Positions 1 through 16,884 of a stretch of DNA of 19,618 bases are shown one piece after another. The notes under the pieces are model-generated. The model was given only the letters and a program-made list of their open reading frames with translations. It was not told the origin of the DNA and searched no databases. The stretch is taken from positions 1-19,618 of IMG/VR virus record IMGVR_UViG_2526164662_000035. One strand, given 5' to 3'. The position numbers and the translations under genes were made by a program. This DNA is from a virus. Its lineage: Duplodnaviria > Heunggongvirae > Uroviricota > Caudoviricetes. The stretch's first letter is position 1. Every line of letters starts with the position of its first letter.

Positions 1-852
1 AAGAATCCGTTTGGTGATATCAAATCGGATGGCACGGTGAAAACGGCTCTCGAAAACCTTGATTTAACGGACCTGGGTATCGGTAAAAATATCTCTGGTT
101 CTAACATTAACTTGCTTTCGAGCGCAACAAGTTCTGGTTTTTATGCATACGGCGGTAATACAGACCCGGATTTTGGGATTGATTACGGAATGGTGCTAAC
201 GTTGTTGTATGATTCCGTATCAAAACAACGAGTGCAGATTTATCTTCCGCTAGCAAATTCTGCTGGAGCAACACCAATCATTCGTGCTGTAACCGGCAAC
301 ACTACGATTTGGAAGTATAAGCTCTTTTCTGAAAAATATAAGCCAACGCCAGCAGATGTGGGGATGGGGTCTGGTGCGCCAGCTATCGGTGTCCCATTCT
401 TCTGGCCCTCCGCAGCAATGCCGAATACGGTCATAAGCGAATGGTCTGACATGGTGTTTTTAAAATTTAACGGCGCGTCATTTTCTGCTGCGGTATACCC
501 CAAACTTGCACAGGTGTTCCCTGGACTTACACTTCCCGAAGCTCGAGGCGAATTCCCGCGTATCTGGGATGATGGTCGTGGGGTCGATTCAGGAAGGGCA
601 TTGCTGAGTACTCAGGTGGATGCCATCCGAAATATCACTGGTGAAGTCGGTATTGTTCAATATTTTGGGAATACTACAAATTCTGGTGCGCTTTATTCTG
701 GGGGGGCACAAAACTTAACGAACCTCCAGCCAGGCGGAAGCACTGTTGCTCAAAGTATTCTCTTCAGCGCTGGAAAAGACCCATCGGTATCAATTGCAAA
801 CGAGAACCGACCGCGCAACATCGCATTCAATTTCCTGGTGAGGGCAAAGTAA
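1..852 (+). CDS. Phage (side) tail fiber protein, C-terminal part; 5' end lies outside the window
   Basis: Frame 1 is open from nt 1 to TAA at 850-852. The C-terminal region (FFWPSAAMPNTVISEWSDMVFLKFNGASFSAAVYPKLAQVFPGLTLPEARGEFPRIWDDGRGVDSGRALLSTQVDAIRNITGE) has the hallmarks of the phage tail-collar domain. Its stop overlaps the start of the downstream tfa-like gene (TAATG). Confidence 0.85.
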   Translation, partial: KNPFGDIKSDGTVKTALENLDLTDLGIGKNISGSNINLLSSATSSGFYAYGGNTDPDFGIDYGMVLTLLYDSVSKQRVQIYLPLANSAGATPIIRAVTGNTTIWKYKLFSEKYKPTPADVGMGSGAPAIGVPFFWPSAAMPNTVISEWSDMVFLKFNGASFSAAVYPKLAQVFPGLTLPEARGEFPRIWDDGRGVDSGRALLSTQVDAIRNITGEVGIVQYFGNTTNSGALYSGGAQNLTNLQPGGSTVAQSILFSAGKDPSVSIANENRPRNIAFNFLVRAK

Positions 853-1187
853 TGAAACCTGTCTTTGATGAAAATGGTCTGGCAACGCAGGCCGGTGATA
901 TTCGTTGTTTTTATTACGATGCAGTGACCATGGAATATGCTGGCTGGTCAGATGAATATATTAACGCTGGCGTCAGCATGCCGGGTAATTCAACAGATGT
1001 TGATCCAGGTGAAATGGTTGATGGAAAGGTTTTTATGTTCACGGGCATCGGATGGCGACAGGATGAAGATCATCGTGGTGAAACGGTATATTCAACCGAT
1101 GATACCTCATCTTCCACTATAGATTATATCGGCCCAGTCAGGAAGGGGTACACAACTGTTGCGCCATCAGGACCATATCAAAAGTAG
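852..1187 (+). CDS. tfa: Tail fiber assembly protein (Tfa), N-terminal 111 aa, ending at an in-frame TAG
   Basis: ATG at 852 overlaps the tail fiber stop. The product ends ...EDHRGETVYS...SGPYQK, matching the conserved mid-region of lambda-type Tfa chaperones (...EDHRGKTVY...GEYQKW...). At 111 aa it is about 80 aa shorter than typical Tfa proteins. Confidence 0.8.
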   Translation: MKPVFDENGLATQAGDIRCFYYDAVTMEYAGWSDEYINAGVSMPGNSTDVDPGEMVDGKVFMFTGIGWRQDEDHRGETVYSTDDTSSSTIDYIGPVRKGYTTVAPSGPYQK

Positions 1188-1442
1188 GGACGGCAAAAAG
1201 TAGGGTAACGAGATACTGACACACAGCACGTTGCCGATGTTGAAGCCGCTGAACAGAAGAAGGCTGCGTTACTGGCTGAAGCGCAGGATAAAATAAGTCT
1301 CTGGCAGACAGAATTGCGACTGGACATCATCAGTGATGGGGATAAGGAAAGTCTGATTGCGTGGGTGCAGTACATAAAAGCCATTCAGGCTATAGATACT
1401 TCATCTGCGCCAAATATCAACTGGCCCACCGAACCAGAATAG
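1188..1442 (+). pseudogene. tfa: Tfa C-terminal conserved domain, in the same frame as the N-terminal part but cut off by TAG (1185-1187) and TAA (1206-1208)
   Basis: Same frame as 852-1187. Codons 1209-1439 translate to RDTDTQHVADVEAAEQKKAALLAEAQDKISLWQTELRLDIISDGDKESLIAWVQYIKAIQAIDTSSAPNINWPTEPE, the typical Tfa C-terminus (...LLAEA...W..Y...L..VDTS.AP.I.WP). No start codon of its own. The two stops sit in an imperfect 14-15 bp tandem repeat (caaaagtaggga / caaaaagtagggta). Confidence 0.65.
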
Positions 1443-1589
1443 GAACGTTTGGGGAAGAGTTAGATTAAGGGATGAACTAATTGATGATTAATGCTTTTAA
1501 TTACAAAAGTGTAACTGGAGGTGTATTATTATAAAATAAAAAACGAAGCGTGAGAAGGGGCAAAATAGACAATGGCAGCGCTTTTTATT

Positions 1590-1618
1590 TGTGCTTTGAG
1601 TGTTTAACTCAAAGCACA
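1590..1618. terminator. Perfect 12-bp stem hairpin (TGTGCTTTGAGT-gttta-ACTCAAAGCACA) in the intergenic region, possible bidirectional terminator
   Basis: Perfect inverted repeat read directly. T-rich on the upstream + side (gcgctttttattt) and moderately T-rich downstream. Lies between the tfa remnant and the 3' end of the minus-strand acyltransferase. Confidence 0.35.
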
Positions 1619-1871
1619 TGTTCTAAATTATTTACTTTCGTATTTAAGGGGGTTAGGTTATGACCATTTGGTCAAACAAAACGTTTTAAAAATTCTGCGA
1701 TGGGTTTTTCTATGTACATATGAATGACGCTGCCAGGCGCACAAACTTATTATAAAGTATATTCCAATATATAGGAATACATTGGAATAATCAATAAGTC
1801 CGAAAGACACAAACATATATGATACCCAAGCTGTAATCAAACCATGCGTCAAATATATACTATATGAAGCA

Positions 1872-2764
1872 TCACCGACGGAAAATAATAAGTTTAGCCG
1901 GTTTTATTTTACCTTCAAGGCTCAACGCTGCCCAGACACCATAAAAAGCGAAAAACCCCCATATCAAAGGACGATGCCATTCCCCCCCCATGTTTGTTGT
2001 AATATTAAAGTATTCACATAATAAGAATGTGGGAATAAACAAAGTTAATATTGTAAGCGCAATTGTTTTTTTTAACATAGCGCCCAGTAAGTATAATCGA
2101 TACATAAACATACCCATAGCAAATACGACCATTTCTGGTCTTGCCAGTGTTTTCATGAACGGAAGAATTTCGAATATGATGCTGTTATTTTGATAAGTTA
2201 AAATATTAGCTACTATGGATATAGTTAAAAATAAGATCTCTATATACTCTAACCTTGATAATTTGATAGCAATAAAAAATGCAAAAGAAGTATAAAACAA
2301 AAATTCAAGTTGTAATGTCCAACCTATACTTAGAATTGCATCGCGATGCCAGTGAGTGAATGTAATACTCTCAAGATACCATTGAAGACTGATTTTTGTT
2401 TCGGGCCACCAATAAGCAATAGGTGGAGTTGGGGAAGATATATAATGTTTTACTATGAAGGCTGATAGAACGCAAAGGGCGGTAATTAAAGCATATACCG
2501 GGATTATTCTTATTACTCTTCGCATAAAAAAGTTCCCTGCAGATATTTTGAATTCTCCTTCTGATTGAGAGCCACCATATGCTACGTAAGGTATAATAAA
2601 CCACTAATTATGAAAAATATAATAACGCCAAATCCTCCCAGAGATGCAAGGATTTCGATATTCCCAATGCCATATTGTCCAAGTTCGGCATGTGCCAAAA
2701 CCACCATAGCTGCAGCAATAAACCTTAGTGCTTGTATATTGAAAAGCGTTTTTCTTTTATTCAT
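1872..2764 (-). pseudogene. Acyltransferase family 3 (OafA/Oac-like, O-antigen acetyltransferase type) membrane protein, frameshifted near 2525-2585
   Basis: ORF 2582-2764 starts MNKRKTLFNIQALRFIAAAMVVLAHA...FFIISGLLYLT (typical acyltransferase-3 N-terminus). ORF 1872-2525 in another frame carries the signature RRVIRIIPVY and is strongly hydrophobic. My translation shows the second frame is open upstream to a stop at 2604-2606, so the break is a single frame shift around 2580-2590. The hydrophobic ORF 1658-1852 may be a further degraded 3' piece. The region is markedly AT-rich compared with the flanking tail genes. Confidence 0.7.
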
Positions 2765-2880
2765 TTATATACTGACCCAATTTTGTAATTATGAAACTTT
2801 AATTGATAAGGTAAGCATACTAAATAACTGATAAAAATAATAGATCAATTGAAGGGAACACAATCAGGGTTGTGCCATCT

Positions 2881-3176
2881 GCTAAACTCCAAATATTAAA
2901 AATCACTAATACCAGAGCACTAATGGGGCTCTCCATGATGTACTGGGGACAATTGGACAAAATGGAAAGGGAAATGATTGTTGAGCGAACGCAGGCGGGA
3001 TTAGCTGAGCACTCACTGGAGGTTGGATAGGTAGCCGTAGGCCAAACCTAACAGATGAACAATGGGCGCAGGCCGGGCGATTAATTGCATCAGGCGTTCC
3101 TCGCCAGAAGGTGGCGATCATCTATGATGTTGGTATATCGACACTGTATAAGAAGTTTCCGGTCGGAGATAAATGA
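2881..3176 (+). pseudogene. DNA invertase (Gin/Pin/Hin/Cin family serine recombinase), C-terminal remnant with a -1 frameshift and no catalytic N-terminal domain
   Basis: Frame 1 (2923-3030) reads MGLSMMYWGQLDKMEREMIVERTQAGLAEHSLEVG*. Frame 0 (3021-3176) reads GWIGSRRPNLTDEQWAQAGRLIASGVPRQKVAIIYDVGISTLYKKFPVGDK*, nearly the same as the Gin/Pin C-terminal HTH region (GRIGGRRPKLTPEQWAQAGRLIAAGTPRQKVAIIYDVGVSTLYKRFPAGDK, recalled from memory). The N-terminal ~120 aa with the catalytic serine is absent. Confidence 0.8.
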
Positions 3177-3236
3177 AACCGTAGCACGTCGTATGCAAGA
3201 AGATCGTGCTGCGGTTTATGCTTATCACTTAAAGAC

Positions 3237-4106
<870 letters not shown>

Positions 4107-4190
4107 CTAACCCTTTGAATTTACATAGCGCAAAAAGATACCTTTCCTCATAATGTGAGCTAATTTTATGTTTCGTTTGATGATCGGGTC

Positions 4191-4251
4191 GGTCTCGAAA
4201 ACCGGAGTAGGGGCAACTCTACTGGGGGTTCAAATCCCCCTCTCTCCGCCA
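4191..4251 (+). other. 3' fragment (61 nt) of tRNA-Ser(CGA), serU-like; att remnant, probably the prophage attR
   Basis: ggtctcgaaaaccggagtaggggcaactctactgggggttcaaatccccctctctccgcca: anticodon loop CUCGAAA, long variable arm, T-loop GTTCAAATC, acceptor 3' strand plus CCA. The 5' acceptor strand and D-arm are not present upstream, so this is not an intact tRNA gene. Confidence 0.8.
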
Positions 4252-4826
4252 CTTTATCAATGACTTATCTCCCGACTTCCCGCCTTGCTTTTCCTAAACA
4301 GAACAATCGTAGAATATTCTTGAAGGGTTAGATCGTCACTGTTTTCTGTTCGATACTGTGACATTCAGCACTTGATTCGCTATGGATCTGACAGGAAGGT
4401 TTCGAGCGAAAATCTGCAGTTATTCAGTCGTTTTCTTATCGGTCACCATTATTCTTTTAGACATTGATCCTACAAAGCTGCCGCAAAGTTGGTGGTGGGA
4501 ACTGAAGTTGCGTAGAGAAGGGGTCAATACCCGGAGGCACACATGGGCTGGCAAAAGTGTAGCGGTATTAGGCGCAGCTATTTAGCCTAGTTATGTTTTA
4601 TGAAAACTTGATATCATATAAGTGTCTTACTTATTGGCTGTAAATAAGTTTTTCCTAAGGAATTGTTTCTTGAGTATCATTTGTAACTGTAACGGAATTT
4701 ATAATCCTTTGCTTTATTGTTACGGTATTTTTTATCACACCCTATTTTTTATGTGGTTTTTTATACTGAAGTTTGGCAAAGTGAACTTTATATGCATATA
4801 CTTCATCCTGGTTTCAGTTAAATTGG

Positions 4827-5579
4827 GTGGATGATATGGCAACTACATGTTCAGTTATATTGATTTTGGAGTCCTTTGATATTTATTTCGGAAAAGAGAG
4901 TGTGTTTCTGGAGAGAGGTTCATCTGTACTTGTCGACTCTAGCTCTAGAGATTTTTTCCTGACATATCCTGAAAGAGTGATAGTGGCGGATTTTGGCGCT
5001 GAGTTTATTAGTCGCTATTTGAAAGCTAATAACTTAAGGGATATTTCTGATTGTAGGGAATATCCATCTTATTTAAAAATAAACTTTGCTGACTTCAGTT
5101 TAATTAAAGGATTAATTAGTTGGGCTAATCACTGTGCTGAATACATAGAAATTTTTGATGAGTCTATTGCTTTTACATGTCTCTCTGCATTTTCTTCTGA
5201 AAAACAATTTGGAGTATTTCTGTTTGGATGTTTGAAAAGCACAGGGGCTAAAGTTAAAACGATTATTCATACGGATTTATCTGCACCATGGCGTCTTAAG
5301 GATATATCATCAAGATTATATCTCAGCGAAAGTTTACTAAAGAGGAAATTGAAAGAAGAGGGGATATCATTCAGTAAGATCATACTTGATGAGAGGATGC
5401 AAATGGCTGAATATTTACTCAGCACTCGTTGTTATCCTATTAGTAAAGTAGCTAAGGTCTGTGGTTATGCCAGTGTCTCATACTTTACTTATGTATTTAG
5501 ACGTTATTTTGGTGTTTCTCCAAGTCAATACTCTCAGAGGAGTTCAGAAAGTAAAATTCTTACTCACCAGGGAATCTGA
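4827..5579 (+). CDS. AraC/XylS-family transcriptional regulator (AppY/GadX/Rns-like; low GC)
   Basis: C-terminal double-HTH signature: ...LSAPWRLKDISSRLYLSESLLKRKLKEEGISFSKIILDERMQMAEYLLSTRCYPISKVAKVCGYASVSYFTYVFRRYFGVSPSQYSQR. About 250 aa, like AppY-type regulators. The ATG at 4836 has better spacing to GGTGG and may be the true start. Confidence 0.85.
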   Translation: MDDMATTCSVILILESFDIYFGKESVFLERGSSVLVDSSSRDFFLTYPERVIVADFGAEFISRYLKANNLRDISDCREYPSYLKINFADFSLIKGLISWANHCAEYIEIFDESIAFTCLSAFSSEKQFGVFLFGCLKSTGAKVKTIIHTDLSAPWRLKDISSRLYLSESLLKRKLKEEGISFSKIILDERMQMAEYLLSTRCYPISKVAKVCGYASVSYFTYVFRRYFGVSPSQYSQRSSESKILTHQGI

Positions 5580-5584
5580 TCATT

Positions 5585-5850
5585 GTTCTTGCCCCCTTAT
5601 TTCCAGACAGGGGGTGTATCTTAAGTTAACGTTACCCGCTGACGTCGATATTCTCGCGGAGAGCGATAACCCAACGCACTGTGCGGATGGTTTTCATTGT
5701 AATGTTCGATCGCCACTGCAAGATTATGCAATGCCGTTCTTACATTCGGTTTCGGCATGAACGCGATGTAGTCTTCCTTCATCGTTTTCACGAATCTTTC
5801 TGCCATTCCATTACTCTGAGGACTGCTGATTACCCATGAGGAGTACAATT
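5585..5850 (-). mobile_element. Truncated IS2-like (IS3 family) element: 3' end of the orfB transposase plus the terminal inverted repeat
   Basis: Minus-strand ORF 5621-5848 translates to ...[63 protein letters not shown], the C-terminus of IS2 OrfB. Beyond its stop the minus strand reads ...CTGTCTGGAAATAAGGGGGCAAG, matching the IS2 terminal repeat (TGTCTGGAAATATAGGGGCAAATCCA, from memory). Only ~265 bp of the IS is present, abutting the AraC gene stop. Confidence 0.8.
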
Positions 5851-6068
5851 AAACGGGTTAATCAGTTTCTCCATTTGAAAGAAAAAAGACTTCTGTACTG
5901 TTTGATATCACCGCTATTTTCTTATTTTCTGTGCAGGTCGTAGTGGGACAAAACTGAGACACATAAGGCCTCACAATGGCTTGCAAGGCTTTACATGTTT
6001 TGATGTGGTGGGACGTGTGAGCGCAGTGTTGATGGGGTAATACTTTGAATTAGAAGCGGATTCTTATG

Positions 6069-6114
6069 ATTCGTAATGCGAAGGTCGTAGGTTCGACTCC
6101 TATTATCGGCACCA
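6069..6114 (+). other. 3' fragment (46 nt) of tRNA-Thr (thrW-like); att site
   Basis: attcgtaatgcgaaggtcgtaggttcgactcctattatcggcacca matches the 3' 46 nt of E. coli thrW including CCA. The 5' half of the tRNA is not present upstream. A 46-bp thrW core is what I recall for P22-type attachment sites. Confidence 0.85.
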
Positions 6115-6721
6115 TCAAGAAAATCAATAACTTAGCTTAACTTCTCTAAGAAATTGTATCTTCTGTTATCACTTACAAACGCCTATACGTTGTTATGGGC
6201 TTTGGTAGTGTAACACGTATGGGCGAGTAGTTCCCAGGCTCAACCTCGTAACAAGTTCCTTTGAAGCTGGAAGACGTGCCACCGTCTCTAAACCTTCTAC
6301 CAAAACTCTTAGCAAGATGTTCCACACCTGGCGCGGTGTCCAATGATGCTACACGTCGAGATGACGTCGCAGAGGATAAACAGGCTAAATGATGGGAAGA
6401 GTTTTAAGTGCAATAGTGGATTAAAGCCCACCTCTTCAAAACCTAACTTGATCGGGAAAGAATCAAGCTCTAGCACGGTTTCGTCCACCGGAGTACAACG
6501 GGTGCCTGATAAGAGAAGAACTGCTAAGACTTCATAGCTTTTGTGAAAAAGCCCTTTTTAGTGGATATGCCTACGGCGCTTATTTTTTGGTATAACCATC
6601 AAAGGCGCTTTATGGCTCCTATTGTCTTGAAAATGTATCTTTACTTGTATTGTGTTTTATGCGTAGTCTCCCTGTGTAGTATGTAACTTGTTAATTTTCA
6701 TATGAATACAGAGGCAACACG

Positions 6722-6874
6722 ATGAAAAACATTGCAGCTATAAAACGTAATAACCGCAAGATTCACGCTCGTAAGTTCCTGTCTACGCCAGAGGGAAAAG
6801 CCTGGCTAGAGCGTAAACAGCGAGAGAACGAAGAAAGAAAACTCCTTAGTGAGTTGAAATGGCTTAAGGATTGA
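6722..6874 (+). CDS. Small basic protein (50 aa), hypothetical
   Basis: ATG with AGAGG 9 nt upstream. Product MKNIAAIKRNNRKIHARKFLSTPEGKAWLERKQRENEERKLLSELKWLKD. Followed by a long hairpin at 6884-6927. Below the 60-aa cutoff of the supplied ORF track. Confidence 0.35.
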   Translation: MKNIAAIKRNNRKIHARKFLSTPEGKAWLERKQRENEERKLLSELKWLKD

Positions 6875-6883
6875 ATCACCAGT

Positions 6884-6927
6884 AGGCGCATAACACATCC
6901 AGCAATCAAAGATGTGTTTGTGCGCCT
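6884..6927 (+). terminator. Long imperfect hairpin (AGGCGCATAACACATC ... GATGTGTTTGTGCGCCT) after the small ORF; possible terminator or RNA structure
   Basis: Stem of ~16 bp with an 11-nt loop read directly. The T-run (agttttttag) is ~20 nt downstream, so it is not a canonical intrinsic terminator. Confidence 0.3.
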
Positions 6928-7424
6928 GATAGTGAAATTATTAAAGTTTTTTAGTTAATGTAGCCATTGCATGAACGATGATCGCTAGTGAATCGATTTT
7001 ATCTCGAGGGGTAAAATAGATGAGGTATATGATGGTAACAATTACAGCTAAAGTAATTGTGGTTCTGCAGGTTTTTAAAATGGATAAGATAAAGCGCATA
7101 GATACCCCCTATTGATTTAACAACAACAAGGTATCATTTATTTTTTATTGCATGCAATGTGCAAATTTTCACATATAATAGCTTACTATTCACTTTGCAT
7201 GGTGTCAACAAGATGATGTGTTGTTTTGTTTGATTTGTTCAAGATAATATTTCATTTTCTCATCTATATAACTTGTGTTTTAGATAATTTCACTAATTGT
7301 AAAAGTTACGTATTGCTTAATAGCTGCCTTTTTATCTGAAATCGGCGCAAACGTGATCAATGTTTAACGCGAAGATCAGCGGCGTCAGGTCCACGCAGCG
7401 ACAATTCTCAAATATCAGGAGGCA

Positions 7425-7982
7425 TTACGCTTCCTGCTCTTTCTTGATACGTTGCACCGTCTGTGTGCTGACACTGAAATCTTTTGCTACGCTCCGAATT
7501 GATCCACCATTCGCGAGAGCGGCAACAATTCCCGCTCGATCAATTGCTTTTCCATTACCACGTTTTGCTATACGTCCAGCGGCCTTAGCTGCGGCAATCC
7601 CCTCACGTTGCCGCTCAAGCATCATTTCACGTTCCATTTGTGCCACTGCTGCAAGCACTGTGAGCATCATATTCCCTGCGGGAGAGTTCTTCCCTGTCTT
7701 AAAGTCTTCTTTATGGAAATGCACAGACACGCCGCGCTCTGTTAATTGCTCAACCGTTGCCAGTAGGTCGGCTGTATTACGGCAAAGTCGATCAATGCTG
7801 TGAACATGCAAAACATCACCTTCACGCACATAGTTCATCATTGCCTCAAACTGTGGGCGCTGGGTATTCTTGCCTGACGCTTTATCTTCAAAGACTTTAT
7901 CAAGAGTTACTCCAGCTAATTGACGGTCTGTGTTTTGTTGGACAGTCGATACCCTAATGTATCCAATATTAGCCATTTTCAT
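7425..7982 (-). CDS. Small serine recombinase (resolvase/invertase family, 185 aa)
   Basis: N-terminal catalytic motif GYIRVSTVQQNTDRQ with the conserved Ser, a central ...DRLCRNTADLL... segment, and a C-terminal HTH (GGSIRSVAKDFSVSTQTVQRIKK). Length and layout match gamma-delta/Tn3 TnpR-type resolvases. GGAA lies upstream of the ATG. Confidence 0.9.
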   Translation of the reverse strand: MKMANIGYIRVSTVQQNTDRQLAGVTLDKVFEDKASGKNTQRPQFEAMMNYVREGDVLHVHSIDRLCRNTADLLATVEQLTERGVSVHFHKEDFKTGKNSPAGNMMLTVLAAVAQMEREMMLERQREGIAAAKAAGRIAKRGNGKAIDRAGIVAALANGGSIRSVAKDFSVSTQTVQRIKKEQEA

Positions 7983-7990
7983 TTTCCTTC

Positions 7991-8107
7991 TGTGTTGATT
8001 TGTGTGTAGTGATTATTGATCGTGTTGATTAGGTGTGTAAATGACTTTTTTCACTACGAAATTCGAAGGTTTTTAGTGTGGTGATTTAGCCTGCTTTATC
8101 ACTACAC
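7991..8107. promoter_or_regulatory. Cluster of GTGT(A/G/T)G(T)GATT motifs in both orientations just upstream of the serine recombinase; candidate res/operator site
   Basis: TGTGTTGATT (7991-8000), GTGTAGTGATT (8004-8014), GTGTTGATT (8022-8030), GTGTGGTGATT (8077-8087), and inverted ATCACTACAC (8098-8107) and TCACTAC (8051-8057). Multi-subsite res sites sit immediately upstream of resolvase genes in Tn3-family systems. Confidence 0.4.
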
Positions 8108-8504
8108 GTCTTGCATGAGAATCATGTAGTTATGCTTTGGTAAAATTAGCAAGCTATTAAATAGCGTGTTTATTTTGAAAAAATTAATTTTTTCAACACG
8201 TGAAAGGAACTTGTTCGACAAATAATAGATTGATTTTTAATCAACAATTTCTGATAGTGCTCTGTAAGCCACATTACACAAGGCGCAGCGAAAGTGATGT
8301 AAAAGTGAAGAAAGCTAACATTGCACTTTTAAGCTACTTTTCATTGAATTTTTAGTATGGAATTACATAGGGATTAATCATCAATTAATCTTGAATTTAA
8401 GCCTGTTTTAGATGTTTAATTTTTGATAGCAAGAAACACTTTTAGAAGATCATTGCACAGATGTTATGTGATAAATGGATGTAACGGTAGGTCACTGTGA
8501 ACTA

Positions 8505-8640
8505 CCCCCCACAGAATTCTGTTATCCTTAACTTTTAAAGAAATATGCACCCTAACAGAAAACTGTTACCCCAACCCTAACAGAATTATGTTAGACACCC
8601 CCACAGAAAACTGTTAGCCACCCCTACAGAATTTTGTTAC
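8505..8640 (+). repeat. Array of five phased iterons, each a palindrome CCC-(T)AACAG-N4-CTGTTA, spaced ~23 bp (first one 44 bp upstream)
   Basis: Copies centred on ACAGAATTCTGT (8511-8522), TAACAGAAAACTGTTA (8553-8568), TAACAGAATTATGTTA (8578-8593), CACAGAAAACTGTTA (8602-8616), TACAGAATTTTGTTA (8625-8639). ACAG start positions 8511, 8555, 8580, 8603, 8626. Each is preceded by a short C-run. An AT-rich tract follows at ~8641-8720. Confidence 0.8.
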
Positions 8641-9135
8641 CTATTAGATCAACTATCAAACTACAATTAAATTATCTTTTATAAATTCTTTTATCTTTAA
8701 AGAATAATTATAGGGATACCCGTTAGGGGAGTCTTCGACTATCCCTTAATCTATTGGCATTCGCCAGAACCTTGCACAAGTTAGAGTGTTAGTCGTTAGA
8801 CTGCTTGTCATAACACATAGTTTTTTGTTTGTTGATGTTAGTTAGTAGATCTATGTTCGCTAATGCCGCTCACAACGAATATGTAATCTACTATGTGCAA
8901 ATAGCCTACGGCTTGCGTAAGGCTAAATAGTCTTGCGCTGTGCGCAGAACGATAATTAACTAACTACCATCTAACGATCATCAATCTATTTAAGAGAAAA
9001 TCTATTGTGCAATACTCTGACGAGTGCAATAACCTTGTGTGCTACGCGTTAGCGATGTTAGCACATAGACACAGACAACAACCAACAACAAACAAAAAGA
9101 ATGGTTTTAGTAGTTGAAGGTTAAATAAGATTCTA

Positions 9136-9365
9136 CCGCTTAAATCAAGCCGTAGGCGAGCTAAACGTATATAAGGTAGGGAAACACTTAGCGGTAATAG
9201 ATTAGCTCGTTATAGAGTTTCTGAGAGCTTTGCAGGTATTTTATAAGATGTCTGAAATTAGATTTTATCTATCATCATCTTCCCATATACCTAACAAATA
9301 CAAAATAACCCCCTTAAATAAGCCTCTGGCGAGCTAAACAGCCATTACATAAGGGAATGTATTGT
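9136..9365 (+). repeat. Two copies of a ~45-bp imperfect direct repeat (CTTAAAT-AAGCC-N3-GGCGAGCTAAAC...ATAAGG..GGGAA) about 173 bp apart
   Basis: 9136-9187 cgcttaaatcaagccgtaggcgagctaaacgtatataaggtagggaaa versus 9309-9365 cccttaaataagcctctggcgagctaaacagccattacataagggaatg. A tandem GCGTTTTAGA x2 follows at ~9388-9407. Confidence 0.6.
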
Positions 9366-9500
9366 TTTTATCAAAACCTCGTTAGAACGCGTTTTAGAGC
9401 GTTTTAGACAATAATAAAGAATAGCACTACACATGAGAGCACGAATTGCTAAGAAATATCATAACTTACTGAAAATGATCAATATTTATATGGATAGGGG

Positions 9501-9529
9501 TTGACAAAAGCTTTTAGTCGTGGTAAAGT
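9501..9529 (+). promoter_or_regulatory. Sigma70-like promoter candidate (TTGACA-17 bp-TAAAGT) upstream of the early small-gene cluster
   Basis: TTGACA at 9501-9506, 17-nt spacer, TAAAGT at 9524-9529. The first gene of the cluster starts at 9650 with a strong AGGAGG ribosome-binding site. Confidence 0.3.
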
Positions 9530-9649
9530 AATATTAGGGACAGAAAACATTCTTATCCTCTAAGTAATTAAACCAATGCACCGCACTTTGAAGCCCAAGG
9601 CTTGCAAGGTGTCTTTTTCTTTTAACCAAATAGAATAGGAGGTTAATTA

Positions 9650-9850
9650 ATGAAGTATTACACTCCACAGGATGTAATCGAAGCCTGGAAACGTGGTGAG
9701 ATCAATCGTTTTAAAGTAAGGATGAACAGGAACACAGCGCGACGCTGTGGTTATCCAGAGCGTGAAAAATGCTTTGACGATGCACTAAAAATTATTGATG
9801 AATTAAGAAAAAATGAAAAAGGATCTGAAAAAGAATCTGAAACAGAGTAA
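9650..9850 (+). CDS. Hypothetical small protein (66 aa)
   Basis: Strong ribosome-binding site (aggaggttaattaATG). Charged product MKYYTPQDVIEAWKRGEINRFKVRMNRNTARRCGYPEREKCFDDALKIIDELRKNEKGSEKESETE. First gene after the 1.7-kb noncoding region. Confidence 0.5.
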   Translation: MKYYTPQDVIEAWKRGEINRFKVRMNRNTARRCGYPEREKCFDDALKIIDELRKNEKGSEKESETE

Positions 9851-9869
9851 AGAAGAGAAGGAGAAAACT

Positions 9870-10040
9870 ATGAGCGAAACTACAGAAAAGAAAAGACAAC
9901 CACGCACTTGCTTTCATATTCCTGATGAAGTATTTCAGGTGTTGTTTAAAGAAGCCAGAAGTAAACGTATCACTGTTACAGATTACATTCTTGATATGTT
10001 GAAAAGAGAGGCTGAAACACTCTCAAACAAAAGCAAGTGA
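9870..10040 (+). CDS. Putative ribbon-helix-helix (Arc/CopG-like) DNA-binding protein (56 aa)
   Basis: ATG at 9870 preceded by GGAGAA. Product MSETTEKKRQPRTCFHIPDEVFQVLFKEARSKRITVTDYILDMLKREAETLSNKSK shows a beta-strand/helix/helix pattern (RTCFHIP / DEVFQVLFKEA / VTDYILDMLKRE) typical of RHH regulators. The ORF-track start at 9813 overlaps the upstream gene and is less likely. Confidence 0.45.
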   Translation: MSETTEKKRQPRTCFHIPDEVFQVLFKEARSKRITVTDYILDMLKREAETLSNKSK

Positions 10041-10093
10041 TTTTTATCACCATAGTAGCGCCGTAGAGCGTGATTACATCAAGGAGATTTTTA

Positions 10094-10663
10094 ATGATTA
10101 ATGAAGAACAATTTGTAAAAGTTCCTATGTGGATTCTAAAAATAAGCCAAGTAAACGGGCATAAATTTACAGATAGTGCTAAAAACCTTTACTGCTATTT
10201 GAGAGGGTTTGATCGTGCATTTCCCTCTTACGCTAAGATAGGCGATGTTTTTGGCATAACACCAAGAGCAGCAGAAGAAAGGGTTAAGAAATTGCTCGAA
10301 ATGGGATTAATTATAAAAGATGCACGACCAGGAAGCTCTAACCTTTATCGAGTGCTTGATATTCCAAAAGGAGAATCATCACTACCTGATCCTTCTGAGA
10401 AAGAAGACGAATCTAATGAAATATTGAATGTTTCCGAAATCATCGTTGAAGAAGAAACACAGGAATCAGAGTTCCCTGAGCGGCCCGAAATTTTTACTTG
10501 GCTTCTTTCCCTTGATAAGAAGAAACCACCGCACGAAGAAACAGAAGATTTTGTAAAACGTGCATTAGATTCAAAGAATATCTATCTTGAGAAACAGGCT
10601 TTTCACGATCTGATAATATCTCTAAGAGAAAAAAGTGAAATATACGATTCAATACCATTCTAA
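10094..10663 (+). CDS. Winged-helix DNA-binding protein with an acidic C-terminal region; candidate replication initiator or iteron-binding protein
   Basis: ATG at 10094 with AAGGAG 7 nt upstream. N-terminal region MINEEQFVKVPMWILKISQVNGHKFTDSAKNLYCYLRGFDRAFPSYAKIGDVFGITPRAAEERVKKLLEMGLIIKD resembles the winged-helix N-terminal domain of phage/plasmid replication initiators. Function is inferred. Confidence 0.45.
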   Translation: MINEEQFVKVPMWILKISQVNGHKFTDSAKNLYCYLRGFDRAFPSYAKIGDVFGITPRAAEERVKKLLEMGLIIKDARPGSSNLYRVLDIPKGESSLPDPSEKEDESNEILNVSEIIVEEETQESEFPERPEIFTWLLSLDKKKPPHEETEDFVKRALDSKNIYLEKQAFHDLIISLREKSEIYDSIPF

Positions 10664-10672
10664 GGAGAATAA

Positions 10673-10942
10673 ATGACTTATAACATCACTATAGGAAACA
10701 AAACTATTGAAATAACTGAAAGCGGATACAACATTTTAAAAGCTATTTTGGACATAGAGTTCTCACCCCCGACAGTGGTTAGCTTTTGTAGTTTAGGCGG
10801 CTACAGCGCACAACATGTGAATCATTGGTTAAACCATTTTACATCGTTCGGTGTGCTGGATTATGAAGGGATTAACCACACTACATTTCGTCTTTTGAAA
10901 TTAAACAAAGATTTTGAATTGTTTATCACAAACAATCAATAA
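10673..10942 (+). CDS. Hypothetical protein (89 aa)
   Basis: ATG preceded by AGGAG (taaggagaataaATG). 10 nt after the upstream gene, consistent with an operon. Confidence 0.5.
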   Translation: MTYNITIGNKTIEITESGYNILKAILDIEFSPPTVVSFCSLGGYSAQHVNHWLNHFTSFGVLDYEGINHTTFRLLKLNKDFELFITNNQ

Positions 10943-11038
10943 CAACAGATCGGGCAATACATATGGCAAATGCATTTATGGCGATATTCATCGTAACAAT
11001 GGTATCAAGTTTTTATAATCCACATAAAAAGAGAGAAA

Positions 11039-11422
11039 ATGGGAAGAAAGAAAAAGAACAACTTAAAACGTATTGAAAAAAACAGTAACTTCAATTCAAC
11101 AAGACAACGTCCACCGACACACACCAATAACGAAATTCCAGGGGAAGAGATAATATTTATTCTTGAAACAGAATCCCCTGAAATAAGCGATGAAGAACAA
11201 GAAATAATCAAATCAATGCCAGGCGTTTACTTTCGCCCAAGAACAAGAAAACAAACAATAATTTCTGATGGCACTCTGAAACGTTGGCAGCTTTTAGGGT
11301 TTAGCTCCTATCATCATTTTTTGGGATTTAACGCTTTCAATAATTGTGTAGGTGGTGCATCGGAAGTCGATCTGATGGCTCATTTAGAAGCTACATTAGC
11401 TTCTAACAAACGCTCTAACTAA
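11039..11422 (+). CDS. Hypothetical protein (127 aa), basic N-terminus and acidic middle
   Basis: ORF with N-terminal MGRKKKNNLKRIEK and a central acidic stretch ETESPEISDEEQEI. No recognisable catalytic motif. Confidence 0.45.
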   Translation: MGRKKKNNLKRIEKNSNFNSTRQRPPTHTNNEIPGEEIIFILETESPEISDEEQEIIKSMPGVYFRPRTRKQTIISDGTLKRWQLLGFSSYHHFLGFNAFNNCVGGASEVDLMAHLEATLASNKRSN

Positions 11423-11437
11423 TAAAAGGATGGTCGT

Positions 11438-11683
11438 ATGTATAAGCGCCCAATGAAAATATTCGAAAAAGGAAAAATAATGATTGGCTATATTCAAGAA
11501 ACACAATTATTTCAGATGATCCTGTCTGATGCAAAAAACTATGCTGAGTTAATCCGACTGGCAAAAGAAACAGAAGACTACGAAGCATTAGAGCGTTATC
11601 GTGATGAAGTGCTGACGCTCAAGACACCTTTTAACATCGTATTGAATATGATTAATGATGCATTACAAGGAGAAGCCGCATAA
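11438..11683 (+). CDS. Hypothetical small protein (81 aa)
   Basis: ATG preceded by AAGGATGG. Stop overlaps the start of the next ORF (TAATGG), suggesting translational coupling. Confidence 0.45.
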   Translation: MYKRPMKIFEKGKIMIGYIQETQLFQMILSDAKNYAELIRLAKETEDYEALERYRDEVLTLKTPFNIVLNMINDALQGEAA

Positions 11684-11991
11684 TGGAAGAAGATATTAGC
11701 AATGCAATGGAACAACTTTTAGATCTGACTATCTCACTACAAACAAGAATAAATCAAGCCTATTCAGATTTATGCGATTACACGCTCTCTCAATGCGTTA
11801 TTAGCTTAATGAAGGTGAATGTAAGCCTTGACGATTTTATCTCTCTGGTGAGCGATTTAGAGCTAATTGAGGACGATGCCAAGATGTGCACTCAAACCAT
11901 CACAGACACCGCCAGCACGTTAAAGGCTGCAAGTGAAGAGATTCAGCAATTAGTAGATGATTTAGCAAAAAGTGCTATTCCCTCTAAATGA
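11683..11991 (+). CDS. Hypothetical acidic helical protein (102 aa)
   Basis: Start overlaps the upstream stop. Last gene before the second ORF-free region. Confidence 0.45.
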   Translation: MEEDISNAMEQLLDLTISLQTRINQAYSDLCDYTLSQCVISLMKVNVSLDDFISLVSDLELIEDDAKMCTQTITDTASTLKAASEEIQQLVDDLAKSAIPSK

Positions 11992-12734
11992 TAATGAAAA
12001 TCATTTGCATTTATATAATAAAAATGTTATATTTGTATTAAGGGTAGATAAAAAGGTTTTGACTGGTGTTAATCCTTCTACTGTCATAAATCCCTGCATA
12101 TGGAAGGTGATAGCCTCAAGGGTTGAGTGGCATTAACCTCTAACAAATATTACCTTCCATCTCTCAAGAAGTTTTAGAATAATCATAACTCCCTCTTTGA
12201 TTGTTGATTGTTTCTACGTTGTGTTGATGAATGTTGTTAGGCATTGTGCTTAATTTTGATAAAAGCGGGTAGGTGTTATCTCCTTGCCCTTCCCGCTCTT
12301 ATTTTTCATCTATGCTTATCCTAAAGCTCCTTATTTTGTCCGAAAACATTAAAGAGCCTTACACTGATAGTTATATTTTATAACTATTTACTAACATCAT
12401 TAAACTCTTATTTAATGACAGAAGTTAGTAACAGAATAATCTATTAAGTTGTTGTCAAAAAACTATCATCTGCATAGCGTTAGCCGCAAGCAGAGAGAGT
12501 TTAGCTAAGAATTGTGCAATAACCTTTGGAAATATTGATAGCAAAACGGGTTTTATAGACTGCAAATCTATAATCTTTGGTTGTAAAAACGCTTTTTCTG
12601 AAACGGTAGATTATTGTTGGTGTAGTTAATCCCTATTAAAATTTAATCTGTGAGTAGATTGGAATAGTGATTCCTTAAAATCTGACTGGTGCATCCACAC
12701 CATGAAAGATAGCGGTTAGCCACCGCACCCGAAT

Positions 12735-12790
12735 AGATATTCCTGATTGATTCCGCATGTTTTCCTAAGAGCATGTTTTCAGGAATATCT
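12735..12790. repeat. Perfect 12-bp inverted repeat AGATATTCCTGA ... TCAGGAATATCT around a 32-bp spacer containing GCATGTTTTC twice
   Basis: Read directly: 12735-12746 and 12779-12790 are exact reverse complements. The spacer holds the direct repeat GCATGTTTTC x2. Confidence 0.7.
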
Positions 12791-12897
12791 GTTCACCCTT
12801 TAAACCTATCTTTAAGCATGTTTAATAAGCATTCTTAGAGATACGTTTAAAACCTCCTCAAGGTTTTACTTATCGCTGTGTATTGCCCGACACGTTA

Positions 12898-12950
12898 ATA
12901 AATCCCCCTCGCTATTCTCAGATTGAACCTCTTATAGCCTGGGGGATTTA
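12898..12950. repeat. Perfect 10-bp inverted repeat TAAATCCCCC ... GGGGGATTTA around a 33-bp spacer, just upstream of the structural cluster
   Basis: 12898-12907 and 12941-12950 are exact reverse complements. Lies ~30 bp upstream of the ORF starting at 12983. Confidence 0.6.
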
Positions 12951-12982
12951 TTAAATTCCAACATAATGGAATCGTTATATAA

Positions 12983-13192
12983 ATGAAACAAGAAATTATC
13001 CTGAAATATGGCAATGAAAAGTTAACACTAACTGAAGATGTGTTGAATGCTACAGCCTACGCGCTTGGTATCACTCCCACAGAATTAAAGAAACAGTGTG
13101 AACGTCTTTATAAGGCTGAAAGCAATAAACCATCTCACCAAGATTTGATTAATGCTAAAGCTCAACAAATCAAACAATCTAAGGAAAAATAA
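12983..13192 (+). CDS. Hypothetical small protein (69 aa), first gene of the structural-type cluster
   Basis: ORF whose stop overlaps the next start (TAATGG). Confidence 0.45.
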   Translation: MKQEIILKYGNEKLTLTEDVLNATAYALGITPTELKKQCERLYKAESNKPSHQDLINAKAQQIKQSKEK

Positions 13193-13566
13193 TGGCTATT
13201 TTAAAATTAAGCGATGTTTTCCTACATCGTAAAAGCATCACTGACGTAGTGAGCTATGCAACCGACCCTTACGCGGCTGTAGAAAGCAAAAAATTTGCAG
13301 CACTTGCACAAGATGTAACGTGCGGCGACCTCATTGATTCATCCGGCGCTAAATATGTTAGCGGCGCTGATGTTCTTGTCGTTGTGTCTGACTTCGTAAC
13401 TGCTGATTCAAATAAAACAGTTAACGTGCTTCGTGCTAATGCCGGACTCGTTTGCATCAAAGCTGATGCCCTGAATGCCGAAGGCGCTGTAAAAGAAGCT
13501 GCTATTGCAGCTCTCGCTGCTAAAGGCTTCCAGCTTGAAGGCTTCCACTCTGTTTTCACATCTTAA
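13192..13566 (+). CDS. Possible head decoration or scaffold protein (124 aa), positioned like lambda gpD
   Basis: AAGGAA ribosome-binding site. Ala/Val/Gly-rich product immediately upstream of the gpE-like capsid gene. The gpD analogy rests on position and size only; sequence similarity is weak. Confidence 0.4.
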   Translation: MAILKLSDVFLHRKSITDVVSYATDPYAAVESKKFAALAQDVTCGDLIDSSGAKYVSGADVLVVVSDFVTADSNKTVNVLRANAGLVCIKADALNAEGAVKEAAIAALAAKGFQLEGFHSVFTS

Positions 13567-13582
13567 GAAGGAATAAATAATA

Positions 13583-14611
13583 ATGATTATCGGAAATGAA
13601 GTGGTTGATCTTGCTCCACTGTTCGAATTAAACGACTCACGCAATTACCTACTGTCTACTCTGGATTTTACTGATCCTGTGCCTGTAGAAAGTCACAAAG
13701 TGGCTGTTTCCCAGCTTATCGAGAGCAATGAATCTCTGTTCAACCATCCTACAAGCCGTTTTAGCTCTGAGCATAACGTTACTAAGCGTGAGAACGGGGA
13801 AGAATATCTTATTGAAATCCCGTACTTTTTAAGGGAAGACCTGATCAAACCGCAGGACGTGCAAGGCAAACGCAAAGCCGGAAGCTCTATTGAAGAAACA
13901 CTGCCGGATCTGTATGCGGAATATATCGCTAAACACAATGTTGCATTCCAGCGCACTAAAGAAAGCATCCTCGCGGCTTCTCTGTTCTCTGGCAAGACAC
14001 ACACCCCGAAAACTGACGATGTTCTGATCGATTACAGCACTCTGTTCGGTGTGTCTCCAATGACTGCAACCGTTGACGCATCCAGCACCAACACAATGAC
14101 CGTATTCAAGCAATTTGATCAGATGCATACGGATATGATTGCTAAGGCACAAAGCCAGGCTGCAACCATTGAGCGTGTTGTTGTGTTCTGTAAACCTGCG
14201 GCATTCAACGCTATTCGTTACAGCGTTGGCATGGTTAATGCGTTCCAGTATGCAAGCCCTGTAGACGATGCAAACGTGGTGTTTAATGTGCGTTCTCTGC
14301 TGCCTGGTGTAACTACTTTCACCATTCCAGGAACTAACATTGACCTGATCAAAGTGACTGATCCGCTGCTGCTGGCACATATGACCGCTGACGCTGTAGC
14401 TATTCCTAAACTTGCTAAGGGGGCAGGTGTTTACCAAGCTATTTTTGGTGCGCCTTCCAGTTCATTCGATCTGCTGTCTCAAGGCGCTAAAGAGTATTAC
14501 AGCTATGCTTTCGAATCGAATCGCGGCGACGCAGTGCACGTAGTGACCGAGAATAGCTCGCTTGTGGTTAACCACGGTGTTGGCTTCTCTGTGCAGATCA
14601 CAGTAGCGTAA
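13583..14611 (+). CDS. Putative major capsid protein, lambda gpE family (342 aa)
   Basis: GAAGGA ribosome-binding site. Length matches lambda gpE (341 aa). Local matches to gpE as I recall it: HKVAVSQLIE vs EKVYLSQIPG near the N-terminus, and C-terminal GFSVQITVA vs EFVSVQLA. Needs profile confirmation. Confidence 0.55.
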   Translation: MIIGNEVVDLAPLFELNDSRNYLLSTLDFTDPVPVESHKVAVSQLIESNESLFNHPTSRFSSEHNVTKRENGEEYLIEIPYFLREDLIKPQDVQGKRKAGSSIEETLPDLYAEYIAKHNVAFQRTKESILAASLFSGKTHTPKTDDVLIDYSTLFGVSPMTATVDASSTNTMTVFKQFDQMHTDMIAKAQSQAATIERVVVFCKPAAFNAIRYSVGMVNAFQYASPVDDANVVFNVRSLLPGVTTFTIPGTNIDLIKVTDPLLLAHMTADAVAIPKLAKGAGVYQAIFGAPSSSFDLLSQGAKEYYSYAFESNRGDAVHVVTENSSLVVNHGVGFSVQITVA

Positions 14612-14763
14612 AAAGTGTTAAAGACGTTCCCCTACGTCTGGAAATAATCGGGGCAATAAGGGTAAGGGATAATCATATAAGCAAAATATGCGCTGTCTCT
14701 TGCCCTTTTTGTTTTTCTACTGTCTACAAACCTAAATAAAAATATATATGTGAGAGAAAACCA

Positions 14764-14961: not shown

Positions 14962-14995
14962 CAAATAACAATCATAATACAGGGAAACAATTAAC

Positions 14996-16837: not shown

Positions 16838-16884
16838 TCATCACTGTGGGGCGGTTTAGCCCCCTTAAATAAGGATTACAAATT

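What the first reader, a model, noticed from the sequence alone, without database searches (positions are those of the whole stretch)
852..1442. Tail fiber assembly gene broken by two in-frame stops within an imperfect 14-15 bp tandem repeat
The N-terminal (852-1187) and C-terminal (1209-1439) Tfa domains are in the same frame, with a combined length close to canonical Tfa (~195 aa), but are separated by TAG (1185) and TAA (1206) inside the repeat caaaagtaggga/caaaaagtagggta. The first stop falls exactly where canonical Tfa proteins have the conserved YQKW tryptophan. This could be simple decay or a local duplication; stop suppression is a remote possibility.
Basis: seen in the sequence. Interest (0 to 1): 0.35.

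Follow-up and report, generated by a model that had tools for sequence, protein, structure and literature searches.

The report
Sequencing errors break a tfa gene
The "broken" phage tail-fibre assembly gene is an ordinary gene whose two stop codons come from three single-base insertions that occur in only one old draft assembly and carry the fingerprint of pyrosequencing errors, so it is almost certainly a sequencing artefact.

Summary
The coordinates are right: ORF 852-1187 (111 aa), TAG at 1185, TAA at 1206, and the same frame running on to the stop at 1440-1442. Intact E. coli alleles are 588 bp (195 aa). Against them the window carries three 1-bp insertions within 25 nt: A at 1186 and A at 1202 (both TGGG->TAGGG) and G at 1210. 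They add 3 bases in total, so the frame comes back. There is no duplication and no TGG->TAG change.

These three belong to a patch of 11 single-base indels (1186-2600) that also breaks the neighbouring acyltransferase. The other 4.4 kb compared with strain C7 has no indels. All 11 are +/-1 changes in a single nucleotide flow only under TACG, the order in which 454 pyrosequencing reveals bases. The four non-homopolymer insertions each repeat a homopolymer base from exactly one flow cycle earlier (p about 4e-6).

The window is the first 19.6 kb of a draft contig of E. coli DEC10F. The truncated ORFs are on record in that assembly only. An intact allele one residue away from the repaired protein is on 116 contigs, and a near-identical relative lacks the indels wherever it overlaps.

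Verdict: sequencing or assembly artefact (about 0.88). The true gene is probably an ordinary 195-aa Tfa. Low interest.

The parts
1..852 (+). 3' part of the tail-fibre gene, cut by the start of the draft contig. Its stop TAA (850-852) overlaps the tfa start (TAATG).
   Evidence: Open frame to 852. It corresponds to the gene just upstream of tfa in strain C7 and to the 360-aa gene in L012/L013. Window position 1 is contig position 2 of AIGU01000004.1.
852..1442 (+). Tail fibre assembly gene (tfa; annotated 'tfaE' in DEC10F). In this record it reads as a 111-aa ORF, two stops and a C-terminal remainder. With 3 bases removed it is a 195-aa Tfa.
   Evidence: The repaired protein matches Pfam Caudo_TAP at 111 bits over the full profile. 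It is 98% identical to the C7 protein.
1186..1186 (+). Extra A (TGGG->TAGGG) inside the W112 codon. It creates TAG 1185-1187 and shifts the frame by +1.
   Evidence: In the flowgram the order is A4, C0, G1, T1, then A called 1 instead of 0, then G3.
1202..1202 (+). Extra A (TGGG->TAGGG) inside the W117 codon: the second +1 shift. TAA 1206-1208 arises from GGGTAAC read in the frame of the record.
   Evidence: In the flowgram the order is A5, C0, G1, T1, then A called 1 instead of 0.
1210..1210 (+). Extra G (AAC-AGAT->AACGAGAT): the third +1 shift, which restores the original frame.
   Evidence: In the flowgram the order is G3, T1, A2, C1, then G called 1 instead of 0.
1443..1671 (.). Intergenic spacer between the convergent tfa and acyltransferase genes. 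It holds five more single-base indels (1546, 1587, 1625, 1645, 1656) and a perfect 12-nt hairpin at 1590-1618.
   Evidence: indels; hairpin I2.
1672..2764 (-). Acyltransferase family gene (363 aa when intact). Here three single-base indels at 1743, 1879 and 2600 split it into 60-aa and 217-aa ORFs plus a tail.
   Evidence: The intact form is on 251 contigs and the 217-aa fragment on 1. The near-identical contig L010 lacks the 1879 and 2600 indels.
2953..3176 (+). Remnant annotated in RefSeq as 'helix-turn-helix domain-containing protein', frameshifted and missing its N-terminus. Reading it as the C-terminal end of a DNA invertase is my inference. It is context only.
   Evidence: Mapped from the C7 annotation. 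Pfam HTH_7 hits the equivalent small ORF in L014.

Best explanation
The two stops are not in the organism. They are base-calling and consensus errors in a poorly covered stretch near the start of a draft contig (E. coli DEC10F, AIGU01000004.1), made by a flow-based sequencer, most likely 454 pyrosequencing.

Shown: three spurious single bases (A1186, A1202, G1210) sit in a tfa gene that is otherwise normal. Eight more indels of the same kind lie just downstream.

Inferred mechanism: signal from a homopolymer (AAAA, AAAAA, GGG) leaks into the next flow of the same nucleotide one cycle later, through incomplete extension or carry-forward. An empty flow is then called as one base.

Inferred consequence: the real gene is an uninterrupted 195-aa tail-fibre assembly chaperone. 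It sits directly downstream of, and overlaps, the tail-fibre gene in the tail module of a prophage whose baseplate genes include a Phage_Mu_Gp48-family gene.
For: 1. Nature of the lesion. Against six complete E. coli genomes that carry the same gene at 98-99% identity (588 bp, annotated intact), the window has exactly three 1-bp insertions, and these create both stops.

2. Clustering. The window differs from strain C7 over 5.8 kb by 27 substitutions and 11 indels.
- All 11 indels lie in 1186-2600, and 10 of them in 1186-1879.
- There are none in 1-1185 or 2601-5831.
- Simulated probability of such a span is 3e-6.
- Two natural alleles, C7 and ERP001, differ by 29 substitutions and 0 indels over 3.2 kb.
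- The other 13.5 kb of the window has only 2 indel events against a 99.9% identical genome.

3. Flow signature.
- Of the six possible cyclic nucleotide orders, only TACG makes all 11 indels simple +/-1 changes of one flow without re-phasing. The others manage 7-8 of 11. TACG is the order in which 454 reveals bases (PMC3045300).
- All four insertions that are not homopolymer-length changes (1186, 1202, 1210, 1879) repeat the base of a run of 2 or more exactly one cycle upstream. Random insertions do this 4.6% of the time, so four of four has p about 4e-6.
- At 1645-1656, T4->3 and G6->5 are each paired with +1 in the next T or G flow.
- Insertions are the commonest 454 Titanium error, they rise towards read 3' ends, and the CAFIE mechanism is described in PMC3116506.

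4. Privacy.
- The 111-aa, 42-aa and 217-aa ORFs are on record on one contig only, the DEC10F draft.
- The C7 allele is on 204 contigs. An intact allele one residue from the repaired window protein is on 116.
- Loci with the window's own SNP haplotype (L008, L012, L013) have none of the 11 indels.
- L010 has the same downstream junction and is 99.93% identical over window 1762-8510. It lacks the 1879 and 2600 indels.
- All four viral-contig matches to a pattern that allows both forms are the intact 32-nt form.

5. Repair gives a canonical protein.
- Deleting the three bases gives YQKWDGKKWVTDTD.
- W112 and W117 are invariant in 21 homologs.
- The repaired protein matches Caudo_TAP over the full profile.

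6. Independent authors noted frameshifts with premature stops in sister assemblies of the same project (DEC9A, DEC9E, DEC10D) and suspected sequencing or assembly errors (PMC5592225).
Against: - I could not see raw reads, coverage or the assembly's platform field.
- The project paper (Hazen et al. 2012) is not held. That DEC10F was sequenced by 454 is my recollection plus the flow-order test, not a documented fact here.
- Seven of the 11 indels are homopolymer-length changes, which natural slippage also favours. Only the four non-homopolymer insertions and the paired leaks discriminate.
- The rest of the window is clean, so the explanation needs a local drop in coverage or quality that I could not verify.
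- DEC10F also has five private substitutions in this stretch (36, 45, 652, 1221, 1775), so the strain or the assembly differs from its relatives in other ways too.
- No independent assembly of DEC10F itself was found.
Confidence: 0.88

Rival explanations
1. Real pseudogene. In strain DEC10F the prophage tail end has truly accumulated three insertions in tfa, plus eight more indels nearby. This could be decay of a defective prophage or one patch of error-prone repair synthesis. Tfa is then truncated at 111 aa and non-functional.
For: - The prophage end is visibly degraded in all relatives too, with an invertase remnant, an rve remnant and a partial stfP.
- DEC10F has private substitutions in the same stretch.
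- No raw data were available to exclude it.
Against: - Eleven indels against about 9 substitutions in 1.4 kb, with zero indels in the flanking 4.4 kb. Natural alleles at about 1% divergence show 0 indels.
- Only the 454 flow order fits all 11 indels, and the leak pattern has p about 4e-6.
- The broken ORFs are seen in one assembly only, among collections that hold the intact alleles on hundreds of contigs.
- Near-identical relatives lack the indels.
- Three +1 events that happen to sum to an in-frame +3 within 25 nt is an odd outcome for independent mutations.
Confidence: 0.08
2. Programmed recoding. The gene is expressed full-length by stop-codon suppression or read-through, or by three successive ribosomal frameshifts, as a regulated way of making Tfa.
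For: Only that the frame is restored after the second stop and that the total length is close to canonical.
Against: - No ortholog conserves the site. All are plain 194-198 aa ORFs.
- Read-through would need both TAG and TAA decoded and would replace WDGKKWVT with x-GRQKVG-x-R, destroying two invariant tryptophans.
- Restoring the right sequence would need three separate frameshifts within 25 nt.
- There is no tRNA gene in the window.
- The same kind of lesion hits intergenic DNA and the neighbouring gene.
Confidence: 0.01
3. Local tandem duplication of a 14-15 bp unit that introduced the stops.
For: The two similar strings at 1179-1190 and 1195-1208.
Against: - Both strings exist in the intact alleles, where they code for QKWD and KKWV.
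- The window is only 3 bases longer than the intact alleles, not 14-15.
- Tandem Repeats Finder finds nothing.
Confidence: 0.005
4. A short 111-aa Tfa is the functional, conserved form, and the downstream segment is an unrelated relic.
For: None found.
Against: - The best 120 of 1011 homologs are almost all 194-199 aa and carry both Tfa Pfam domains.
- The 111-aa product is on 1 contig.
- The downstream 77 aa match Caudo_TAP profile positions 57-131 at 81 bits, in continuity with the upstream part.
Confidence: 0.005

Closest known systems
Tail fibre assembly proteins of the lambda Tfa / e14 TfaE type (Pfam Caudo_TAP PF02413 with Caudo_TAP_N PF28596)
   Same: - Once the three extra bases are removed, the gene is a 195-aa protein 98% identical to annotated E. 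coli Tfa proteins.
- It matches Caudo_TAP over the full profile and keeps the YQKW motif.
- It sits directly after the tail-fibre gene with a TAATG overlap.
- GenBank already names it tfaE in DEC10F.
   Different: Only the three extra bases in this one record, which split it into 111-aa and 42-aa called ORFs.
454 / flow-based pyrosequencing indel errors (homopolymer miscalls and carry-forward/incomplete-extension, CAFIE)
   Same: - All 11 indels are single-flow +/-1 changes under the TACG order.
- Seven events are leaks into the next same-base flow after a homopolymer.
- Insertions outnumber deletions.
- The indels are clustered within about 2.6 kb of a contig end and are private to one early-2010s draft (PMC3045300, PMC3116506, PMC3305335).
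   Different: - Errors normally vanish in the consensus at good coverage, so low local coverage has to be assumed.
- The platform was not documented here.
Genuine prophage tfa pseudogenes in cryptic E. coli prophages
   Same: A tfa reading frame interrupted by frameshifts and stops, in a degraded prophage end.
   Different: - Real decay is shared by related strains and mixes substitutions, larger deletions and IS insertions.
- Here the lesions are private to one assembly, are only 1-bp indels, and follow a sequencer's flow order.

Membership tests
Tail fibre assembly protein (Tfa; Pfam Caudo_TAP) | Significant match to the Caudo_TAP profile above Pfam's gathering score | tested here: met
   The repaired 195-aa protein scores 111.4 bits (cut-off 22.1) over profile 1-131. 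The C-terminal fragment 1209-1439 alone scores 81.1 bits over profile 57-131.
Tail fibre assembly protein (Tfa; Pfam Caudo_TAP) | N-terminal Caudo_TAP_N domain (PF28596) | tested here: met
   Precomputed Pfam hits on the 111-aa product and on all full-length homologs. The local hmmscan copy did not list this family, so this rests on the precomputed hits.
Tail fibre assembly protein (Tfa; Pfam Caudo_TAP) | Gene lies immediately downstream of the tail-fibre gene in a tail/baseplate module | tested here: met
   TAATG overlap at 850-854. In relatives the order is baseplate J, Phage_Mu_Gp48 family (annotated YmfQ in C7), tail fibre, tfa.
Tail fibre assembly protein (Tfa; Pfam Caudo_TAP) | Uninterrupted reading frame of about 195 aa | tested here: not met
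   In the record as deposited, stops at 1185 and 1206 cut it to 111 aa. It is met only after removing bases 1186, 1202 and 1210.
Tail fibre assembly protein (Tfa; Pfam Caudo_TAP) | Chaperone activity on the cognate fibre | not testable with these tools
   Needs experiment.
Flow-based (454-type) sequencing error | Each indel is a +/-1 change in one nucleotide flow, with no change of flow phase, under the instrument's flow order | tested here: met
   11 of 11 under TACG. 7-8 of 11 under the other five cyclic orders.
Flow-based (454-type) sequencing error | Spurious bases follow a homopolymer of the same base by one flow cycle (CAFIE leak) | tested here: met
   Four of four non-homopolymer insertions, against a null of 4.6% each. 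Also paired leaks at 1546 and 1645-1656.
Flow-based (454-type) sequencing error | Differences are private to one assembly and absent from the closest relatives | tested here: met
Flow-based (454-type) sequencing error | Assembly documented as made from 454 or Ion Torrent reads, with low coverage or quality at the site | not testable with these tools
   The project paper is not held. No reads or quality values are available. The platform is from memory only.
Programmed recoding (read-through or frameshift) site | Stop or shift site conserved in orthologs | tested here: not met
   All orthologs have plain TGG codons and a single ORF.
Tandem duplication | Extra copy of the unit relative to orthologs | tested here: not met
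   The window is only 3 nt longer than the intact alleles, and both units are present in those alleles.

The most novel reading that the evidence does not exclude
The 11 clustered single-base indels are real. They would then record a localised burst of frameshift mutagenesis, for example one error-prone repair-synthesis tract, that inactivated both tfa and the adjacent acyltransferase in the DEC10F prophage, and that by coincidence mimics pyrosequencing flow errors.
Probability: 0.06. Interest if true: 0.25.

Novelty: not a real feature. Interest (0 to 1): 0.03.

Why it matters
Biologically it does not matter much. The gene is an ordinary, already annotated tail-fibre assembly chaperone in a common E. 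coli prophage.

The practical value is as a caution:
- Pseudogene calls, "in-frame stop" curiosities and recoding candidates taken from 454-era draft assemblies can be artefacts, especially near contig ends.
- A simple flow-space test can flag them without raw reads. The test asks whether every indel is a single-flow change under TACG, and whether each spurious base follows a same-base homopolymer by one cycle.
- The same patch also falsely splits the neighbouring acyltransferase gene in GenBank (EHX01024.1).

Tried and rejected
- Tandem duplication: rejected by the alignment and Tandem Repeats Finder.
- Suppressor tRNA in the window: none found.
- Conserved short Tfa: rejected.
- Species-representative genomes and metagenome contigs, scanned with a pattern that matches both intact and mutated forms: no match at all, so uninformative.
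- Viral contigs with the same pattern: four matches, all the intact form.
- Sequencing platform: accession and strain searches found nothing. A word-start search for AIGU only hit French text. The project paper could not be read by DOI, PMC id or PubMed id. A further search was off-target.
I used an exact cluster look-up instead.
- Collapsed-repeat consensus of two prophage copies: considered and set aside, because the indels match no known allele and do fit flow errors.

Full report
**1. What is in the sequence**

Translation of 852-1442 gives a 111-aa ORF ending ...APSGPYQK, then TAG (1185-1187). It continues GRQKVG, TAA (1206-1208), and then RDTDTQHVADVEAAEQKK...NWPTEPE up to TAG (1440-1442).

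The other two frames hold the pieces that look missing. DGKK is in the +1 frame right after the first stop. VT is in the +2 frame after the second TAGG. That is the signature of successive +1 shifts, not of point mutations to stop codons.

**2. Comparison with intact alleles**

Six complete E. coli genomes carry this gene at 98-99% identity. In each the match is 588 bases, not 591, and it is annotated as an intact tail fiber assembly protein.

Aligned sequences:
- Intact alleles: CAAAAGTGGGACGGCAAAAAGTGGGTAACAGATACTGAC, encoding QKWDGKKWVTDTD.
- Window: CAAAAGT[A]GGGACGGCAAAAAGT[A]GGGTAAC[G]AGATACTGAC.

There are therefore three single-base insertions, at 1186, 1202 and 1210, adding 3 bases in total.

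The "imperfect 14-15 bp repeat" is simply the coding sequence for the two KW motifs. It is present in every intact allele, and Tandem Repeats Finder reports nothing.

Removing the three bases gives a 195-aa protein with these properties:
- It is 98% identical to the C7 protein.
- W112 and W117 are restored. Both are invariant in 21 homologs of 68-98% identity.
- It matches Pfam Caudo_TAP end to end at 111 bits.

All of the best-scoring homologs in a 5.8-billion-protein collection are about 194-198 aa, apart from a few shorter entries, most of them labelled partial.

**3. The lesion is part of a patch**

Over the 5.8 kb that aligns with strain C7, the window differs by 27 substitutions and 11 single-base indels.

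The indels fall as follows:
- 1186, 1202, 1210 in tfa.
- 1546, 1587, 1625, 1645, 1656 in the intergenic spacer.
- 1743, 1879, 2600 in the convergent acyltransferase gene at 1672-2764. That gene is thereby split into 60-aa and 217-aa ORFs.

No indel lies in 1-1185 or 2601-5831. A span this small has a simulated probability of 3e-6 for 11 uniformly placed events.

Two baselines show how unusual this is:
- The natural alleles C7 and ERP001 differ by 29 substitutions and no indel over 3.2 kb.
- The remaining 13.5 kb of the window shows two indel events against a 99.9% identical genome.

**4. The indels carry a sequencer's fingerprint**

I converted the window and the reference into flowgrams for each of the six possible cyclic nucleotide orders. 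Only TACG makes all 11 indels plain +/-1 changes of a single flow with no change of flow phase. The other five orders manage 7 or 8. TACG is the order in which 454 pyrosequencing reveals bases (PMC3045300).

The four insertions that are not homopolymer-length changes all follow the same rule. Each falls in an empty flow exactly one cycle after a homopolymer of the same base:
- A4-C0-G1-T1-[A]
- A5-C0-G1-T1-[A]
- G3-T1-A2-C1-[G]
- C2-G1-T0-A1-[C]

Random non-homopolymer insertions in this sequence satisfy that rule 4.6% of the time. Four of four therefore has p about 4e-6.

Other events show the same leak into the next cycle:
- At 1546, A6 is followed one cycle later by A1 called as 2.
- At 1645-1656, T4->3 is paired with the next T flow 1->2.
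- In the same stretch, G6->5 is paired with the next G flow 1->2.

This is the carry-forward/incomplete-extension (CAFIE) behaviour described for 454. Insertions are the commonest error there, and they rise towards read 3' ends (PMC3116506; PMC3305335).

Because TACG is its own reverse complement as a cycle, the phase test cannot tell the strands apart. The leak direction fits either incomplete extension in + strand reads or carry-forward in - strand reads.

**5. Provenance and privacy**

- The exact 111-aa product is on record on one contig only, AIGU01000004.1 of GCA_000250095.2. Window position 1 is contig position 2. The protein is EHX01022.1, 'tfaE [Escherichia coli DEC10F]'.
- The 42-aa downstream ORF and the 217-aa acyltransferase fragment are likewise unique to that contig.
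- The C7 Tfa allele is on 204 contigs and the intact acyltransferase on 251.
- An intact Tfa that differs from the repaired window protein by one residue (T123A) is on 116 contigs.
- Loci with the window's own SNP haplotype (L008, L012, L013) have none of the 11 indels.
- L010 (GCA_002467385.1) shares the window's unusual downstream junction and is 99.93% identical over window 1762-8510. It lacks the 1879 and 2600 indels.
- Four viral contigs matched a pattern that allows both forms, and all four have the intact 32-nt form.
- Authors who used sister assemblies from the same project (DEC9A, DEC9E, DEC10D) noted frameshifts with premature stops and suspected sequencing or assembly error (PMC5592225).

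**6. Interpretation**

Shown:
- Three private 1-bp insertions cause the stops.
- They belong to a private cluster of flow-type indels near a draft contig end.
- Removing them restores a canonical Tfa.

Inferred:
- The insertions are consensus errors from low-coverage pyrosequencing reads.
- The strain's real gene is intact.

That the DEC collection drafts were made with 454 chemistry is my recollection of Hazen et al. 2012 (J Bacteriol 194:3026). I could not read that paper here, so the only evidence in hand for the platform is the flow-order test.

The main rival is a real clustered mutational patch, which I put at 6-8%. Read-through or frameshift recoding, tandem duplication and a conserved short Tfa are each contradicted by direct tests.

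**7. Comparison with what is known, and verdict**

The gene is a member of the lambda Tfa / e14 TfaE family. The domain, context and motif tests are met. The uninterrupted-ORF test fails only in this one record.

From general knowledge of the family (not tested here), such proteins chaperone trimerisation of the tail-fibre tip.

Nothing here is new biology. Novelty: not a real feature. Interest: about 0.03. The only decisive steps left are to look at the original reads or to re-sequence DEC10F across window 800-2800.

Noticed in passing
window 1672-2764 (- strand): The acyltransferase gene next to tfa is split into 60-aa and 217-aa ORFs by three single-base indels (1743, 1879, 2600) of the same flow-error type. 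The intact 363-aa form is on 251 contigs and the 217-aa fragment (EHX01024.1) on one. It is probably also an artefact.
   Followed up: yes
window 1760-1789; L010 and L015 contig ends: Two independent short-read assemblies (GCA_002467385.1 contig NMKO01000057.1 and Logan SRR3971769_35) both end exactly at window position 1762, beside a 13-nt inverted repeat (1760-1772 / 1777-1789). Either the hairpin breaks assemblies, or everything to the left (tfa and tail fibre) is repeated in those genomes.
   Followed up: partly
window 36, 45, 652, 1221, 1775: Five substitutions are private to DEC10F against every related locus that covers them (L001, L005, L008, L012, L013). Two lie within 45 nt of the contig start. 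CAG->CGG at 36 and 45 and AGAAA->AGGAA at 1775 could be paired under- and over-calls. 1221 gives the only amino-acid difference (A123T) from the common intact allele.
   Followed up: partly
window 5832-6111: The prophage right end (tfa, acyltransferase, invertase remnant, GIY-YIG, AraC, rve remnant) abuts the 3' part of a tRNA-Thr gene at 6069-6111. In strain CAU16175 this sequence follows proA and a complete tRNA-Thr. ARAGORN finds no complete tRNA in the window. The same junction is present in L010, L011 and L014, so it is real and not a chimera.
   Followed up: partly
window 6069-19007: A roughly 13-kb island starts at the partial tRNA-Thr gene and has a tyrosine integrase at its far end (17643-19007, - strand). 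It also holds a resolvase-family recombinase (7425-7982, - strand), a major capsid protein (13583-14611), a 613-aa protein and a 'phage baseplate protein'. Homologous islands (about 95-99.9% identity over most of this stretch) were among the top hits in many E. coli genomes. It looks like a small satellite or defective phage element. Not examined.
   Followed up: no
window 13583-13585 vs L004 10513-10515: The window has ATG at the start of the capsid gene. Strain CAU16175 lacks these 3 bases (ATAATA---ATTATC), so its RefSeq CDS of the same length begins on a non-ATG triplet (ATA). This is a 3-bp indel polymorphism or an error in the other genome.
   Followed up: no
window 2872-3176: A C-terminal remnant annotated as a frameshifted helix-turn-helix protein lies downstream of the fibre/tfa/acyltransferase block (ORF 2872-3030 and RefSeq pseudogene 2953-3176; Pfam HTH_7 on the equivalent ORF in L014). 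If it is a DNA-invertase remnant, which I infer but did not test, it would suggest a former invertible tail-fibre segment that is now fixed and partly replaced by the acyltransferase.
   Followed up: no
L008 (IMGVR_UViG_2526164662_000017), opposite window 2740, 2746, 2778: This otherwise closest haplotype has three extra single bases of its own at the 5' end of the acyltransferase and just upstream of it. They are absent from the window and from L001 and L005, so they are possibly errors in that draft.
   Followed up: no
protein cluster 1: The 90%-identity cluster that holds the 195-aa Tfa proteins has a 360-aa 'phage tail protein' as its representative, and it also contains a 314-aa 'tail fiber assembly protein, partial'. 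Either the clustering lumps the adjacent fibre gene with tfa, or some assemblies fuse the two ORFs across the TAATG overlap.
   Followed up: no
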